A DNA stretch of 64,000 nt from a virus (IMGVR_UViG_3300022555_001761); one strand, 5' to 3'; positions 60,651-64,000 are shown, counted from the first letter of the stretch. The notes: generated by a model from the letters alone, not told the origin. Program-made: numbers and translations.

Positions 60651-61424
60651 ATGAAAAATTTAGTAATAGGCAACACATCACAATTATCTTATTATTTTCC
60701 AGATGATTATGAAAAAATATCATCCAGAGATATATTTTTCACAGAAGAACTTTATGATAGAGTTTATATTTGCTTTGCTGAGCAAAGAACTTATATTCAA
60801 GATAATAGAGATATTTTTTTAAATACAAATATTGATTACACACTCAAAATAATAGATCATTTTAGTAAGTATTCTAATAAAATTATAATATATGGCACGA
60901 GTGAATTATGGAACAATTGTAATGGAACTATAGATATAACTACACCATATAATTATAAATCAACAAATTATATAGATTCTAAAAAAATAATGATTGAAAA
61001 AATAAAAGATAAATATGAAAAAGTTATAGTTCTTTATCCATTTAATTTCAATTCTATTTACAGAAAAGAAGGTTTTTTATTTTCTAAAATTTTTGATTCA
61101 ATTATTAATGAAAAGAAGATAACTATTGGAAACACATATTTTTACAGAGAATTAATACATCCAAAATTTGTTGTAGATCAATCTATAAAAGCTCAATCAG
61201 ATGATATAATTGGATCTGGAAGATTAATATTTGTTAATGATTTTATTAGAAGTTTATATTCTCATTTTAATATGAATTATGATGACTTTGTTACAGAGAG
61301 TTATAAAGAAAATATAACATCAGATGAAAGAATTTTTTATTTAAAATCTAAACAAGTGTTATATAATGATCTATATAATGATACTATTTCTGAAATAGAA
61401 AAAATAAAAGTAATAAATGGATAG
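60651..61424 (+). CDS. hypothetical protein, possibly a degenerate Rossmann/epimerase-like fold
   Basis: N-terminal LVIGNTSQLS resembles a degraded GxxGxxG; tentative. Confidence 0.3.
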   Translation: MKNLVIGNTSQLSYYFPDDYEKISSRDIFFTEELYDRVYICFAEQRTYIQDNRDIFLNTNIDYTLKIIDHFSKYSNKIIIYGTSELWNNCNGTIDITTPYNYKSTNYIDSKKIMIEKIKDKYEKVIVLYPFNFNSIYRKEGFLFSKIFDSIINEKKITIGNTYFYRELIHPKFVVDQSIKAQSDDIIGSGRLIFVNDFIRSLYSHFNMNYDDFVTESYKENITSDERIFYLKSKQVLYNDLYNDTISEIEKIKVING

Positions 61425-62574
61425 AATTACACTAGTTAAGGATACTATTGATACTAATGATATTAGTTTATTAATAGAATGGTTAAAAACAAACCCAATA
61501 CTCACCAAAAATAAACTTACTATAGAATTTGAAGAGAAATTTTCTAAATATCAAAATAGAAAATATTCGGTATACGTCAATTCTGGATCATCAGCTAACC
61601 TTGCTATGATTTATAGTTTATTAATTTCTGGTAAATTAAAAAACAAAAATATTATACTGCCTGCAGTCTCATGGACAACAACTGTTGCTCCAATTATTCA
61701 AGTAGGATTAAATCCTATATTATGTGATTGTGATAAAGAAACACTTGGGTTAGATATTGATGATCTAAAAAGATTAATAAAAGAACATAGTCCATCTGTT
61801 GTAATGTTAGTTCATGTACTTGGATTTCCAAATAAAATGAAAGAAATAATTGACTTATGCTTAGAAAATGACATTATTTTATTAGAAGATTCTTGTGAAA
61901 GTATTGGTTCAACATATAATGGTATAAAAACTGGTTCATTTGGTTTAATGAGTTCATTTTCATTTTATTTCGGTCATCATTTATCAACAATAGAAGGTGG
62001 TATGATCACAACAGATGATTACGAATTATATAGCATATTAAAATCAATAAGAGCGCATGGCTGGGATAGAGATTTAGATGAACCATTTAAATCTGAATTA
62101 AAAAAGGGATTTGAAGTTGATGAATTCGAAGATTTATATAAATTTTATTATCCTGGGTTCAATTTAAGATCAACAGACTTACAAGCATTCATTGGAATAC
62201 ATCAAATGGATAAAATTGATAGGGTAGTTCACACCAGGCAATTTAATTATTTTTATTACAATGAATTAATTAAAAATGATTATTGGAAAATTACTGATTT
62301 TCCAAATACATATATTTCAAATTTTGCCTATCCTATAATTCATCCAAATAGGAAAAAAATTGCAGAAGAATTAAATAAAGGAGGTGTTGACTGTAGACCA
62401 TTAATTTGTGGGTCTATTGGAAATCAGCCTTATTGGGTAAAATTATACGGTAAACAATCTTTTAACTTTGCTGATATAGTAGATAAATATGGATTGTATG
62501 TGCCAAATAATCCAGATATAGGACTAGAAGAAGTAGAGTATATCTGTGATATAATAAATAAAAATGTAATATGA
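61417..62574 (+). CDS. colD: GDP-4-keto-6-deoxy-D-mannose 3-dehydratase (ColD; PLP/PMP enzyme with His in place of the Schiff-base Lys)
   Basis: PAVSWTTT, ILLEDSCESIGSTYNGIKTGSFGLMSSFSFYFGHHLSTIEGGMITTDDYELYSILKSIRAHGWDRD, YPGFNLR align closely with E. coli O55 ColD (PAVSWSTT; ILLEDNCESMGATFNNKCAGTFGLMGTFSSFYSHHIATMEGGCIVTDDEEIYHILLCIRAHGWTRN). Confidence 0.85.
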   Translation: MDRITLVKDTIDTNDISLLIEWLKTNPILTKNKLTIEFEEKFSKYQNRKYSVYVNSGSSANLAMIYSLLISGKLKNKNIILPAVSWTTTVAPIIQVGLNPILCDCDKETLGLDIDDLKRLIKEHSPSVVMLVHVLGFPNKMKEIIDLCLENDIILLEDSCESIGSTYNGIKTGSFGLMSSFSFYFGHHLSTIEGGMITTDDYELYSILKSIRAHGWDRDLDEPFKSELKKGFEVDEFEDLYKFYYPGFNLRSTDLQAFIGIHQMDKIDRVVHTRQFNYFYYNELIKNDYWKITDFPNTYISNFAYPIIHPNRKKIAEELNKGGVDCRPLICGSIGNQPYWVKLYGKQSFNFADIVDKYGLYVPNNPDIGLEEVEYICDIINKNVI

Positions 62575-62915
62575 TAGGTGAAAGAATAGAAGATATCATT
62601 AAAACAACAATTAATAATACATTAAATAAATCAACAAATGTGGATATGCCATCTGATATTATTGAAACTGATAATATTGGTGAAGTAATAGAAAAATTAT
62701 CAATACTACATTGTAGAATGTGGTATTTAGAAGATGCAATTGGATTATCAACTTCAGATGCAGAAATTGCTGATTTGAAAAGGAAAATTGACATTTGTTT
62801 TAAACAAAAAAGACCAAAATATGTTGAGGCGATTAACAGAATGATGGAAAAATCAATTATAGAAGGAAAATCTTTAATTGAAGATTCTGTAAAACTTTAT
62901 AAAGGTCACGAATAA
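62571..62915 (+). CDS. hypothetical protein between colD and colC
   Basis: track ORF 114 aa. Confidence 0.4.
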   Translation: MIGERIEDIIKTTINNTLNKSTNVDMPSDIIETDNIGEVIEKLSILHCRMWYLEDAIGLSTSDAEIADLKRKIDICFKQKRPKYVEAINRMMEKSIIEGKSLIEDSVKLYKGHE

Positions 62916-62930
62916 AAATAATTAATATGA

Positions 62931-63860
62931 ATGGAATTAAATAGTAAAATTTTTGTAGCTGGACATAATGGAATGGTCGGTAGTGCAATAGTTAGAAAAT
63001 TAAAAAATGAAGGTTATACTAATATAATTACTGCTAGTCATCAAGAGCTTGATCTTACAAATCAATCTAGAACTTATAATTATTTTAAGAACGAAAAACC
63101 AGATTATGTATTTTTAGCCGCAGCAAAAGTTGGTGGAATTATGGCTAATAATCTATATCCTGCTGAATATATTTATCAAAATCTAATGATTGAAACAAAT
63201 GTGATAAACTCTTGTTTCAATTTTGATGTTAAAAAATTGCTTTTATTAGGATCAAGTTGTATCTATCCTAGAGAATGTCCACAGCCAATTAAGGAAGAAT
63301 ATTTATTGTCAGGATATTTAGAGCAAACAAATGATGCATACGCAATAGCAAAAATTGCTGGTATTAAAATGTGTCAATCATATAATAAACAATATAATAC
63401 AAATTATATTTCTGTAATGCCAACAAATCTTTATGGACCTAACGATTCATATCATCTTGAAAATTCACACGTGTTTCCAGCAATGATAAGGAAAATTCAC
63501 GAAGCAAAAGTAAGAGGTGATAAATCTATCACTCTTTGGGGTACTGGATCACCTTATAGAGAATTCTTACATGTTTATGATTTAGCGGATGCTTGTTTGT
63601 TTTTAATGGAAAATTATAACCAAAATGAAATAATCAATATAGGTAGTGGTAAAGATTTAACAATAAAAGATTTAGCACTATTAATGAAAAAGATTATAGA
63701 ATTTGAAGGAGAAATATATTTTGATTCATCTAAACCAGATGGAACACCAAAGAAACTTTTAGATGTTTCTAAACTACATTCATTAGGATGGAATCATACT
63801 ATTGAATTAGAAGAAGGTATAAAAGAAACTTATAAAAATTATCTAACTACGTTAGAATAA
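62931..63860 (+). CDS. fcl: GDP-L-colitose synthase / GDP-L-fucose synthase family (ColC or Fcl)
   Basis: FVAGHNGMVGSAI...YVFLAAAKVGGIMANN.YPAE.IYQNLMIE.N...LLLLGSSCIYP...YAIAKIAGIKMCQSYN.QY...SVMPTNLYGPND...NSHV.PA...GTPKKLLDVSKLHSLGW closely parallels E. coli Fcl. Confidence 0.85.
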   Translation: MELNSKIFVAGHNGMVGSAIVRKLKNEGYTNIITASHQELDLTNQSRTYNYFKNEKPDYVFLAAAKVGGIMANNLYPAEYIYQNLMIETNVINSCFNFDVKKLLLLGSSCIYPRECPQPIKEEYLLSGYLEQTNDAYAIAKIAGIKMCQSYNKQYNTNYISVMPTNLYGPNDSYHLENSHVFPAMIRKIHEAKVRGDKSITLWGTGSPYREFLHVYDLADACLFLMENYNQNEIINIGSGKDLTIKDLALLMKKIIEFEGEIYFDSSKPDGTPKKLLDVSKLHSLGWNHTIELEEGIKETYKNYLTTLE

Positions 63861-63876
63861 AAATAATTATTAATAA

Positions 63877-64000
63877 ATGAAAATATTATGTACGGGGATC
63901 ACTGGTCAAGACGGGAGTTACTTAGCAGAAAAACTATTAGAACAAGGACATGAAGTTCACGGAATTATAAGAAGGTCTAGTTCATTTAATACCAGTAGAA
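63877..64000 (+). CDS. gmd: GDP-mannose 4,6-dehydratase, N-terminal fragment (runs off window end)
   Basis: [41 protein letters not shown] matches the Gmd N-terminus ([35 protein letters not shown]). Confidence 0.85.

What the first reader, a model, noticed from the sequence alone, without database searches (positions are those of the whole stretch)
61417..64000. colD-colC/fcl-gmd cluster: a GDP-L-colitose (3,6-dideoxyhexose) type pathway in a virus-like context
The 385-aa ORF matches ColD (GDP-4-keto-6-deoxy-D-mannose 3-dehydratase) in detail, including the diagnostic His replacing the PLP lysine (SFSFYFGHHLSTIEGG). It is followed by a GDP-fucose-synthase/ColC-type reductase and a Gmd fragment. 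With the upstream intein-containing GT4, GT2, the O-methyltransferase/GT8/GT9 fusion and gmhA at 37224, this makes a dedicated dideoxy-sugar glycan-building module. That is unexpected beside phage-like genes and may decorate virion or host-surface glycans.
Basis: partly seen in the sequence, partly recalled or inferred. Interest (0 to 1): 0.6.

Follow-up and report, generated by a model that had tools for sequence, protein, structure and literature searches.

The report
Huge-phage GDP-dideoxysugar gene cluster

Summary
ORF 61417-62574 is a His-type sugar 3-dehydratase. Its best solved relative is E. coli O55 ColD (E 3e-71), window His187 aligns with the catalytic His188, and it lacks the Fe-S cysteines of E1/RfbH. 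A 309-aa reductase and a Gmd N-terminus follow it.

- The reductase is Fcl-type, not ColC-type. It is 52% identical to E. coli Fcl and 37% identical to E. coli O55 ColC. It scores 492.9 bits on the Fcl model, against 304.4 for real ColC.
- Two ORFs were overlooked. One is a 257-aa extended-SDR protein (60651-61424, "SDR257") that overlaps the colD start. The other is a 114-aa DUF4254 ORF between colD and fcl.
- In relatives, including a 400-kb phage contig, the conserved core is SDR257-ColD-(GT-B/DUF4254)-Gmd, with no fcl.
- SDR257 lies directly upstream of ColD in 37 of 39 viral loci. Its presence goes with loss of the Fcl-family reductase (p = 6e-4).

The replicon is a huge phage related to the 462-735 kb Lac Pavin phages. 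His-type ColD genes are common in viral contigs (at least 538 in IMG/VR) and occur, unrecognised, in published cyanophages. I therefore rate this a new variant of a known kind. The final sugar is undetermined: colitose or a different 3,6-dideoxyhexose.

The parts
56793..59480 (+). 895-aa multidomain protein: N-terminal class-I SAM methyltransferase (Methyltransf_24) plus about 700 aa with no recognisable family. Its start overlaps the upstream DNA methylase gene and its end overlaps the next ORF by 4 nt.
Evidence: Pfam PF13578 E 1.4e-14, residues 24-140. No Pfam hit for residues 191-895 at E<=1 and no PDB sequence hit. Present in the closest relatives (L008/L009) but absent from the 400-kb relative L093.
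59477..60637 (+). 386-aa probable GT-B glycosyltransferase (GT9-like fold) with a C-terminal beta-sandwich of about 85 aa. It is the candidate transferase for the sugar made by the cluster.
   Evidence: No Pfam family. AlphaFold2 model pLDDT 91.6. Foldseek PDB top hits are GT9 heptosyltransferases 3tov, 1psw, 2h1h and TibC (prob 1.0, TM 0.40-0.46). In the 400-kb relative L093 its N-terminal domain is fused to the DUF4254 domain in one 436-aa protein. It co-occurs with SDR257/ColD in 32 of 80 SDR257-seeded viral loci.
60651..61424 (+). SDR257: a 257-aa compact extended-SDR nucleotide-sugar enzyme whose end overlaps the colD start by 8 nt. It is the proposed 4-ketoreductase partner of ColD.
61417..62574 (+). 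ColD-type PMP-dependent GDP-4-keto-6-deoxy-D-mannose 3-dehydratase (385 aa). The catalytic His is H187.
   Evidence: Pfam DegT 232 bits. PDB ColD 243.6 bits, against E1 134 and perosamine synthase 121. 36.6% identity to E. coli O55 ColD. H187 aligns with ColD H188. No cysteines where E1 has its RDCYCAPGCDNTC Fe-S segment.
62571..62915 (+). 114-aa DUF4254-like protein. It is a free-standing version of a domain that is fused to the GT-B protein in relatives.
   Evidence: Pfam PF14063 23.2 bits, below the cut-off of 27. 82% identical to residues 324-435 of the 436-aa fusion protein of L093. Found in 39 of 80 SDR257-seeded viral loci.
62931..63860 (+). Fcl-type GDP-4-keto-6-deoxy-D-mannose 3,5-epimerase/4-reductase (GDP-L-fucose synthase type, 309 aa).
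   Evidence: NF047922 492.9 bits against a cut-off of 500. PDB Fcl 363-377 bits. 52% identical to E. coli Fcl and 37% to E. coli O55 ColC. S107, C109, Y136, K140 and H179 equivalents are present, and 4 of 4 discriminating columns are in the Fcl state. Absent from relatives L093, L012, L007 and L048.
63877..64000 (+). N-terminal 41 aa of GDP-mannose 4,6-dehydratase (Gmd), cut by the window end.
   Evidence: TIGR01472 E 2.1e-17. The full 331-aa protein on the identical contig L001 scores 477.5 against a cut-off of 415 and 377-407 bits to solved GMDs.

Best explanation
The window end is part of a co-directional, overlapping operon in a huge phage (relatives are 400-500 kb). The operon diverts host GDP-mannose into deoxysugars for a phage-directed glycan.

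Proposed steps:
1. Gmd makes GDP-4-keto-6-deoxy-D-mannose. This is inferred from equivalog-level homology.
2. The ColD-type enzyme, using PMP and His187 as acid/base, removes the 3-OH to give GDP-4-keto-3,6-dideoxy-D-mannose. It regenerates PMP from glutamate without an E3-type reductase. This is inferred from homology, the His substitution and the absence of the Fe-S motif.
3. The 4-keto product is finished by the 257-aa SDR encoded immediately upstream, acting as a 4-ketoreductase. The product is a GDP-3,6-dideoxyhexose of undetermined configuration. This is inferred from gene linkage, fold and catalytic motifs.
4. The Fcl-type enzyme is an addition specific to this lineage. It converts the same Gmd product to GDP-L-fucose. 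It may also turn the ColD product into GDP-L-colitose, as ColC does.
5. The GT-B protein with its DUF4254 partner, the GT4 and GT2 upstream, and the methyltransferase-containing 895-aa protein then transfer and perhaps methylate these sugars. The acceptor is unknown (host envelope glycan or virion); this step is pure inference.

GDP-mannose itself must come from the host.
For: ColD identity:
- Searches support it. His is present in 173 of 173 distinct homologues.
- The E1 Fe-S cysteines are absent.
- ColD is the best PDB match, with about twice the bit score of E1.

Gmd:
- Searches support it.

Fcl-type rather than ColC-type reductase:
- Searches support it.

SDR257 as the conserved partner:
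- It overlaps colD in the window.
- The order SDR257-ColD is kept in L007, L012, L048 and the 400-kb contig L093, all of which lack fcl within 8 kb.
- 54 of 80 SDR257-seeded IMG/VR loci carry ColD and 48 carry Gmd, but only 2 carry an Fcl-type gene.
- SDR257 is upstream on the same strand in 37 of 39 loci.
- Among distinct viral ColD loci with full flanks, an Fcl-family reductase is present in 9 of 21 with SDR257 and in 30 of 34 without it (Fisher p = 5.8e-4).
- Its fold matches RMD and 4-epimerase type SDRs, and it keeps TSE and YxxSK motifs.

GT-B/DUF4254 link:
- Searches support it.

Huge-phage context:
- IMG/VR contigs hold 89%-identical ColD.
- Related contigs are 400-501 kb.
- The only phage-collection homologues of the window's MVP-like protein are the 462-kb and 735-kb phages LR756500/1/3.
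- The largest genomes of that study (634-735 kb) were placed in the Mahaphage clade and predicted to infect Bacteroidetes (PMC7162821).
- The window also carries homing endonucleases, an RNA ligase and TnpB genes.
Against: - No enzyme was assayed.
- SDR257 has a degenerate glycine motif (GNTSQLS), so cofactor binding is unproven.
- Structure comparison cannot separate a 4-reductase from a 4-epimerase.
- SDR257 and an Fcl-family reductase co-occur in about 40% of SDR257+ColD loci, including this window. They are therefore not simple substitutes.
- 9 of 36 SDR257 loci have no ColD or Gmd nearby.
- Fcl-family reductases are the usual neighbour of His-type ColD in both viral loci (32 of 38) and bacterial loci. 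That favours the classical ColD plus epimerase/reductase scheme.
- The co-occurrence test pools loci seeded in two ways and ignores phylogenetic non-independence.
- The window ColD is only 37% identical to the characterised enzyme.
Confidence: 0.45

Rival explanations
1. Classical colitose pathway. Gmd, then ColD, then the 309-aa Fcl-type enzyme acting as a ColC (C5 epimerase and C4 reductase) give GDP-L-colitose, with GDP-L-fucose as a by-product. SDR257 has another role, for example a 4- or 2-epimerase acting on the finished sugar, or none in this pathway.
For: - The reductase has all five catalytic residues needed for epimerisation and reduction.
- Fcl-type reductases sit 3-23 nt from His-type ColD genes in at least ten bacterial loci, in cyanophage ACG-2014f and in megaphage LR756502.
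- 32 of 38 distinct viral ColD loci have an Fcl-family reductase nearby.
Against: - The reductase is not in the characterised ColC clade.
- It is missing from the nearest larger relatives, which keep SDR257-ColD-Gmd.
- The negative association between SDR257 and Fcl-family genes (p = 6e-4) is not expected if SDR257 needs the reductase's product.
- There is no published evidence in the searched library that an Fcl-type enzyme accepts the 3-deoxy substrate.
Confidence: 0.3
2. The cluster makes only GDP-L-fucose (Gmd plus Fcl). The DegT-family protein does something other than C3 deoxygenation of a GDP-sugar, for example a transamination like that seen with SpnQ, or it acts on another nucleotide sugar.
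For: - The reductase is a near-equivalog of Fcl (492.9 against a cut-off of 500).
- The ColD homologue is only 37% identical to the characterised enzyme and belongs to a distinct subfamily.
- SpnQ, another His-type enzyme, can transaminate (review PMC8987622).
Against: - His replaces Lys in every homologue.
- The best structural relative by far is ColD.
- Linkage with gmd is persistent across bacteria and viruses.
- The Fe-S motif that SpnQ and E1 need is absent.
Confidence: 0.08
3. The pathway acts on GDP-D-glycero-D-manno-heptose (compare the window's gmhA) and gives a 3,6-dideoxyheptose, as in some Campylobacter capsules.
For: - gmhA is present at 37224-37808 and passes its equivalog cut-off.
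- The GT-B protein resembles GT9 heptosyltransferases.
- That 3,6-dideoxyheptoses occur in Campylobacter capsules is my own recollection, not checked here.
Against: - Gmd scores 377-407 bits to true GDP-mannose dehydratases, and the solved C. jejuni heptose 4,6-dehydratase does not appear at E<=1e-40.
- gmhA is 24 kb away.
- No heptose kinase, phosphatase or guanylyltransferase was found in the window.
Confidence: 0.05
4. The sequence is not viral. It would be a low-GC bacterial (symbiont) genome fragment, and the cluster an ordinary O-antigen or capsule locus.
For: - A SusC-like outer-membrane barrel, gmhA, a GGDEF fragment and a cobalamin adenosyltransferase look cellular.
- Several close ColD homologues sit in contigs binned as bacterial MAGs.
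Against: - IMG/VR holds the near-identical contigs.
- Homologues of window proteins occur in curated 462-735 kb phage genomes.
- A 64%-identical ColD lies next to T4-type portal and gp15 genes.
- The window has many homing endonucleases, an intein, RNA ligases, and no tRNA, rRNA or ribosomal genes among the roughly 50 ORFs scanned.
Confidence: 0.03

Closest known systems
E. coli O55/O111, Yersinia pseudotuberculosis VI colitose pathway (Gmd, ColD, ColC)
   Same: - The same first two enzymes. ColD has the DegT fold, His in place of the PLP lysine, no Fe-S cluster, and sits next to gmd.
- An Fcl-superfamily epimerase/reductase lies in the same operon.
   Different: - The window ColD is only 37% identical and belongs to a separate subfamily, whose members are 46-89% identical to it and are mostly viral or from MAGs.
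- The reductase is Fcl-clade, not ColC-clade.
- An extra 257-aa SDR overlaps colD.
- There is no manB, manC, wzx or wzy.
- The genes are encoded by a huge phage.
GDP-L-fucose genes of T4-like cyanophages (e.g. S-SCSM1, PMC9602691) and the Gmd/Fcl-type/His-ColD triad of Synechococcus phage ACG-2014f (NC_047714 gp209-gp211)
   Same: Phage-encoded gmd and fcl-type genes lie beside glycosyltransferases and a methyltransferase. ACG-2014f gp211 has the same TFSFYFGHHMTTIEGG His motif.
   Different: - The cyanophage ColD is only 35% identical.
- Gene order there is gmd-fcl-colD.
- BLAST of the four nucleotide-sugar genes examined in ACG-2014f (gp209, gp210, gp211, gp219) gave no match to SDR257. The rest of that locus was not searched for SDR257, the GT-B protein or DUF4254.
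- The dehydratase is annotated only as 'aminotransferase', and its role has not been discussed in the papers I could search.
CDP-3,6-dideoxyhexose pathway (E1/RfbH + E3, then RfbJ/RfbS reductases, RfbE epimerase)
   Same: The logic is the same: a 4,6-dehydratase, then a His-type PMP 3-dehydratase, then a small stand-alone SDR 4-reductase. This is the role proposed for SDR257.
   Different: - That pathway uses a CDP-glucose substrate.
- E1 needs a [2Fe-2S] cluster and the E3 reductase. The window enzyme lacks the cysteine motif and scores 210 against a cut-off of 423 on the RfbH model.
RMD, GDP-4-keto-6-deoxy-D-mannose reductase (PDB 6x3b, 2pk3)
   Different: - Sequence identity is only 13-16%.
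- SDR257 is 40-50 residues shorter.
- Its glycine-rich motif is degenerate.
- The substrate is presumed to be the 3-deoxy compound.
- NDP-sugar 4-epimerases match its structure equally well.

Membership tests
ColD (GDP-4-keto-6-deoxy-D-mannose 3-dehydratase) | DegT/DnrJ/EryC1 (aspartate-aminotransferase-like) fold | tested here: met
   Pfam PF01041 232.3 bits, covering 3-359 of 360 profile positions
ColD (GDP-4-keto-6-deoxy-D-mannose 3-dehydratase) | Histidine in place of the PLP-binding lysine (E. coli His188) | tested here: met
   Window H187 aligns with His188. The H188K and H188N PDB entries differ at exactly this column. His is found in 173 of 173 distinct homologues.
ColD (GDP-4-keto-6-deoxy-D-mannose 3-dehydratase) | No [2Fe-2S] cysteine motif, which separates ColD from E1 and SpnQ (PMC8987622) | tested here: met
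   The E1 segment RDCYCAPGCDNTC aligns with the window segment DRDLDEPFKSELKK, which has no Cys. The only invariant Cys of the family, C160, is shared with E. coli ColD.
ColD (GDP-4-keto-6-deoxy-D-mannose 3-dehydratase) | Closer to characterised ColD than to any other characterised DegT enzyme | tested here: met
   ColD 243.6 bits, E1 134, perosamine synthase 121
ColD (GDP-4-keto-6-deoxy-D-mannose 3-dehydratase) | Same orthologous clade as the characterised enzymes | tested here: inconclusive
   36.6% identity to E. coli ColD. The window protein belongs to a subfamily whose members are 46-89% identical to it, while canonical ColD-ColC loci are 33-42% identical. No tree with outgroups was built.
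ColD (GDP-4-keto-6-deoxy-D-mannose 3-dehydratase) | C3 deoxygenation of GDP-4-keto-6-deoxymannose with glutamate-dependent PMP regeneration | not testable with these tools
   This needs an enzyme assay. The only indirect support is linkage to gmd.
ColC (GDP-L-colitose synthase) | Groups with characterised ColC rather than Fcl | tested here: not met
   - 37% identity (205 bits) to E. coli O55 ColC, against 52% (354 bits) to E. coli Fcl.
- The ColC clade in 21 bacterial loci is 50-59% identical to E. coli ColC, and the window protein is outside it.
- 0 of 4 discriminating columns are in the ColC state.
ColC (GDP-L-colitose synthase) | Catalytic Ser/Cys/Tyr/Lys/His set for epimerisation and 4-reduction | tested here: met
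   S, C, Y, K and H are present at the E. coli Fcl 107/109/136/140/179 equivalents. Fcl shares the same set, so this does not discriminate.
Fcl (GDP-L-fucose synthase, GMER) | NCBIfam equivalog NF047922 at or above the cut-off of 500 | tested here: inconclusive
   492.9 bits, 7 bits short. Controls: E. coli Fcl 550.9, E. coli ColC 304.4, phage L005 reductase 390.4.
Fcl (GDP-L-fucose synthase, GMER) | Catalytic residues, and adjacency to gmd | tested here: met
   The gmd start is 16 nt downstream of the stop.
Gmd (GDP-mannose 4,6-dehydratase) | TIGR01472 equivalog score at or above 415 | tested here: met
   The 41-aa window fragment scores 63.3 bits over its whole length. The full-length protein on the identical contig L001 scores 477.5 bits and 377-407 bits to solved GMDs.
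E1 / RfbH (CDP-6-deoxy-L-threo-D-glycero-4-hexulose 3-dehydrase) | NF011936 score at or above 423, and the Fe-S cysteine motif | tested here: not met
   210.5 bits. The cysteines are absent.
Extended SDR NDP-sugar 4-reductase/epimerase (for the 257-aa ORF) | Rossmann fold with catalytic Ser/Thr and YxxxK | tested here: met
Extended SDR NDP-sugar 4-reductase/epimerase (for the 257-aa ORF) | Canonical GxxGxxG dinucleotide-binding motif | tested here: not met
   The motif is G-N-T-S-Q-L-S. The second and third glycines are replaced by invariant or near-invariant Ser. Cofactor binding is unverified.
GT9-like GT-B glycosyltransferase (for the 386-aa ORF) | GT-B two-Rossmann fold resembling heptosyltransferases; sequence membership in Pfam Glyco_transf_9 | tested here: inconclusive
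   The fold match has probability 1.0 but TM only 0.40-0.46. There is no Pfam hit.

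The most novel reading that the evidence does not exclude
The 257-aa SDR would define an uncharacterised, mostly viral enzyme family: a stand-alone 4-ketoreductase without epimerase activity for the ColD product. Huge phages, and many other phages in IMG/VR, would then make a GDP-linked D-series 3,6-dideoxyhexose (GDP-tyvelose-like or its 4-epimer). This nucleotide sugar is not known from any organism. A new GT-B/DUF4254 transferase would install it on the host envelope or the virion.
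Probability: 0.2. Interest if true: 0.7.

Novelty: new variant of a known kind. Interest (0 to 1): 0.5.

Why it matters
3,6-Dideoxyhexoses are strongly antigenic sugars. They are known almost only from bacterial O-antigens, and their biosynthesis is textbook enzymology.

This analysis shows three things:
- His-type ColD dehydratases are widespread in phage genomes, including published cyanophages where they are labelled 'aminotransferase'.
- In a huge-phage lineage ColD is wired to an uncharacterised small SDR and a GT-B/DUF4254 pair rather than to ColC.
- That gives a concrete, cheaply testable set of four enzymes for a possibly new nucleotide-sugar branch.

It also suggests that large phages remodel surface glycans with rare sugars during infection. 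That bears on receptor masking, superinfection exclusion and grazing resistance.

The result is not a new principle. Phage-encoded GDP-fucose genes and virus-encoded glycosylation are already known.

Tried and rejected
- Megablast of 52000-64000 against 50,697 phage records gave no match. The replicon had to be placed through protein homologues instead.
- E1/RfbH identity for the dehydratase was rejected. The Fe-S cysteines are absent and the HMM score is far below the cut-off.
- ColC identity for the 309-aa reductase was rejected on four independent comparisons.
- The GT8/GT9 domains claimed in the 895-aa protein gave nothing with Pfam at E<=1 on split segments or with a PDB sequence search at E<=5. 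They remain unverified.
- A profile search of the SDR257 alignment against PDB sequences gave only insignificant hits (E 0.025-0.08). Structure prediction and fold search were needed.
- Fold comparison could not separate a reductase from a 4-epimerase for SDR257.
- manB, manC and sugar nucleotidyltransferases were not found. About 50 ORFs were scanned with Pfam, PHROGs or NCBIfam. The 'nucleotidyltransferase' at 8578-9252 is Pol-beta-type, not a sugar-1-phosphate transferase.
- The GDP-heptose variant is judged unlikely.
- There are no tRNA genes in the window.
- Literature: no paper in the library links colitose or ColD to a phage or giant virus. DUF4254 is uncharacterised. The primary ColD structure papers are not held, so residue roles beyond His188 were not used.
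- The antisense ORF 62462-62794 (110 aa) lies inside colD and the DUF4254 ORF on the opposite strand. I treated it as spurious.

Full report
**What is in the sequence**

The last 8 kb of the window is a run of same-strand ORFs that overlap or lie 13-16 nt apart:
- 56032-56796: DNA methylase.
- 56793-59480: 895-aa protein.
- 59477-60637: 386-aa protein.
- 60651-61424: 257-aa protein.
- 61417-62574: 385-aa protein.
- 62571-62915: 114-aa protein.
- 62931-63860: 309-aa protein.
- 63877 to the window end: an ORF cut off after 41 codons.

GC content is 22-27%, like the rest of the window. The cluster therefore does not look like a recent import.

**The dehydratase**

The 385-aa protein is a full-length DegT/DnrJ/EryC1 enzyme (E 1.3e-68).
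- Its best solved relatives are the four E. coli O55 ColD entries (239-244 bits). These score about twice as high as E1/RfbH (134) and perosamine synthase (121).
- Those entries include the H188K and H188N mutants, so the alignment fixes the catalytic column. It is window His187, the first His of FGHHLST.
- I fetched the real colD, colC and fcl genes from E. coli O55:H7 CB9615. The window protein is 36.6% identical to ColD.
- Where E1 carries its Fe-S ligands (RDCYCAPGCDNTC) the window protein has no cysteine. Absence of this cluster is what separates ColD from E1 and SpnQ (PMC8987622).
- Across 78 distinct bacterial and 95 distinct viral homologues the catalytic position is always His and never Lys.

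The ColD-type assignment stands, with one caveat: this is a separate subfamily from the characterised enzymes.

**The reductase**

The 309-aa protein is Fcl-type, on four comparisons:
- On the NCBIfam Fcl equivalog model (cut-off 500) it scores 492.9. E. coli Fcl scores 550.9 and genuine E. coli ColC only 304.4.
- By BLAST it is 52% identical (354 bits) to Fcl and 37% identical (205 bits) to ColC.
- In 80 bacterial loci retrieved with a ColD alignment, the reductases next to ColD split cleanly into three groups. One is a ColC clade, 50-59% identical to E. coli ColC and always 0-97 nt from colD. One is an Fcl clade. The third is divergent. The window protein is in the Fcl clade.
- At the four alignment columns that separate the two clades it has the Fcl residue every time. 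It also keeps all five catalytic residues.

The criterion is softer than it looks, though. Fcl-clade reductases lie 3-23 nt from His-type ColD genes in at least ten bacterial loci, so such enzymes may well serve as ColC in many organisms.

**Gmd**

The 41-aa fragment is the start of Gmd. The ColD protein occurs with exactly the same sequence on 18 metagenome contigs.
- One of them, L001, extends past the window. It shows a 331-aa Gmd that passes its equivalog cut-off and matches solved GDP-mannose dehydratases at 377-407 bits.
- Downstream of Gmd come metK, a PTH2 peptidyl-tRNA hydrolase, Dam, an RNA ligase and a LAGLIDADG endonuclease.

**The overlooked genes**

The 257-aa ORF ("SDR257") overlaps the colD start.
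- It gives only a weak Pfam Epimerase hit, but it has 921 metagenomic homologues.
- Its invariant motifs echo Gmd/Rmd: GxTSQLS (Gmd has GxTGQDGS), SSR, GTSELWN and YxxSK.

The 114-aa ORF is DUF4254-like (23 bits, below the cut-off). The 386-aa protein has no Pfam family. Its model (pLDDT 91.6) is a GT-B fold closest to GT9 heptosyltransferases, plus a small beta-sandwich.

**Comparative genomics**

A 400-kb contig (L093) is syntenic with the window.
- Its order is NUDIX, GT4, SusC-like barrel (83% identical), SDR257 (72%), ColD (82%), a 436-aa protein, a LAGLIDADG endonuclease, Gmd (88%), MetK and PTH2.
- It has no fcl and no 895-aa protein.
- Its 436-aa protein is a fusion of the GT-B domain (36% identical to the 386-aa ORF) with the DUF4254 domain (82% identical to the 114-aa ORF). 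This ties those two window ORFs together functionally.
- L012, L007 and L048 also have SDR257-ColD without fcl.

IMG/VR gave broader numbers.
- Of the 80 SDR257-seeded loci, 54 carry ColD, 48 Gmd, 39 DUF4254, 32 the GT-B protein and 2 an Fcl-clade gene.
- SDR257 is upstream of ColD on the same strand in 37 of 39 loci, and within 60 nt in 23.
- Among distinct loci with full 8-kb flanks, an Fcl-family reductase accompanies ColD in 30 of 34 loci without SDR257 but in only 9 of 21 with it (Fisher p = 5.8e-4).

I read this as SDR257 being able to replace the epimerase/reductase as the enzyme that finishes the 4-keto product. The frequent co-occurrence, as in this window, would then mean two products rather than redundancy. 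This step is inference. The test ignores phylogenetic structure, and fold comparison cannot exclude a 4-epimerase.

**The replicon**

Evidence that the replicon is a huge phage:
- There is no nucleotide match in the phage collection, but IMG/VR holds contigs with 89%-identical ColD.
- Relatives reach 400-501 kb.
- The window's 803-aa major-vault-protein-like ORF has phage-collection homologues only in LR756500 (462 kb) and LR756501/3 (735 kb). The largest genomes of that study (634-735 kb) were placed in the Mahaphage clade and predicted to infect Bacteroidetes (PMC7162821).
- The phage-encoded SusC-like barrel fits a Bacteroidota host. This is inference.
- A 64%-identical ColD sits beside T4-type portal and gp15 genes in another contig.

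The window also carries three GIY-YIG endonucleases, two TnpB genes, an intein and an RNA ligase, and has no tRNA.

**Comparison with what is known**

- Phage gmd and fcl genes are published as cell-wall modification genes of T4-like cyanophages (PMC9602691).
- Synechococcus phage ACG-2014f genomes encode gmd, an Fcl-clade reductase and a His-type ColD homologue (TFSFYFGHHMTTIEGG). These are annotated as epimerases and aminotransferase. Megaphage LR756502 has an adjacent Fcl-type/ColD pair.
- I found no paper linking colitose or ColD to a virus.

A ColD branch in phages thus appears unreported in the library I could search, yet it is common in sequence data. What is particular to this lineage is the SDR257 and GT-B/DUF4254 wiring.

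**Verdict**

ColD and the viral context hold. 'ColC' does not. The product may be colitose, fucose plus colitose, or a different 3,6-dideoxyhexose.
- Novelty: a new variant of a known kind.
- Interest: 0.5.

Noticed in passing
window 30798-33209 (+): 803-aa protein with Pfam MVP_shoulder and Vault_3 domains (major-vault-protein-like). Its only homologues in the phage collection (49-53% identity, full length) are in the huge phages LR756500 (462 kb) and LR756501/LR756503 (735 kb). A vault-like shell protein conserved in huge phages is unexplained.
   Followed up: partly
window 52660-55926 (+): 1088-aa SusC/TonB-dependent-receptor-like outer-membrane beta-barrel (CarboxypepD_reg, OMP_b-brl_4 and a weak Plug hit), encoded by the phage directly upstream of the glycan operon. 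It is 83% identical in the 400-kb relative L093. It suggests a Bacteroidota host and phage remodelling of the outer membrane.
   Followed up: partly
window 49888-52218 (+): A GT4 glycosyltransferase is interrupted by an intein of about 373 aa, with boundaries LPL|C...VHN|C. The relative L093 has the uninterrupted 411-aa protein at 78-79% identity on both sides.
   Followed up: yes
L003 5490-6347; L093 11305-11775; L012 9149-11449: The fcl-gmd junction is a hotspot for selfish elements. Some variants of this phage have a free-standing LAGLIDADG/NUMOD3 endonuclease between fcl and gmd. L093 has a LAGLIDADG gene before gmd. The L012 Gmd carries an insertion of about 400 aa ending HN|S, which looks like an intein.
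   Followed up: partly
window 12834-14042 (-) and 41757-42944 (-): Two TnpB/OrfB_IS605-type genes (HTH, OrfB and Cas12f-like TNB domains) lie in the phage genome. No TnpA was seen beside them.
   Followed up: no
window 7259-8197 (-), 26536-27186 (+), 33772-34542 (+): Three GIY-YIG/NUMOD homing endonuclease genes lie within 64 kb.
   Followed up: no
window 329-1576 (-), 24768-25499 (-), 20909-21334 (+), 22864-23421 (+), 19652-20665 (+): This group of genes is unusual for a phage: an RCC1-repeat protein (415 aa), an ankyrin-repeat protein, a short GGDEF-domain protein, a PduO-type cobalamin adenosyltransferase (E 8e-57) and a MoaA-like radical SAM enzyme.
   Followed up: no
window 37224-37808 (+): gmhA (sedoheptulose-7-phosphate isomerase) just passes its equivalog cut-off (211.2 against 209.45). 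No other heptose-pathway gene was found in the window. Its link to the GT9-like transferase is open.
   Followed up: partly
L001 13477-14736 (just beyond the window end): A full S-adenosylmethionine synthetase (metK, 419 aa) directly follows gmd. It is conserved in L093 (79% identical). It could supply SAM for the methyltransferase domain of the 895-aa protein and for the phage DNA methylases (N6_N4 at 56032-56796, Dam downstream).
   Followed up: no
L093 15873-16523: The 400-kb relative carries a second, shorter SDR257 paralogue (216 aa, 47% identical) about 7 kb downstream of the first. In addition, 9 of 36 distinct SDR257 viral loci have no ColD or Gmd nearby, so the family may have roles beyond the ColD pathway.
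   Followed up: partly
L013, L014, L017-L020, L024, L049 and many IMG/VR loci (e.g. L110-L117, L227-L257): A third, divergent class of Fcl/ColC-like reductases of about 300 aa (28-40% identical to both Fcl and ColC) is the commonest neighbour of window-type ColD genes in viral contigs, often 0-50 nt away. It is uncharacterised.
   Followed up: partly
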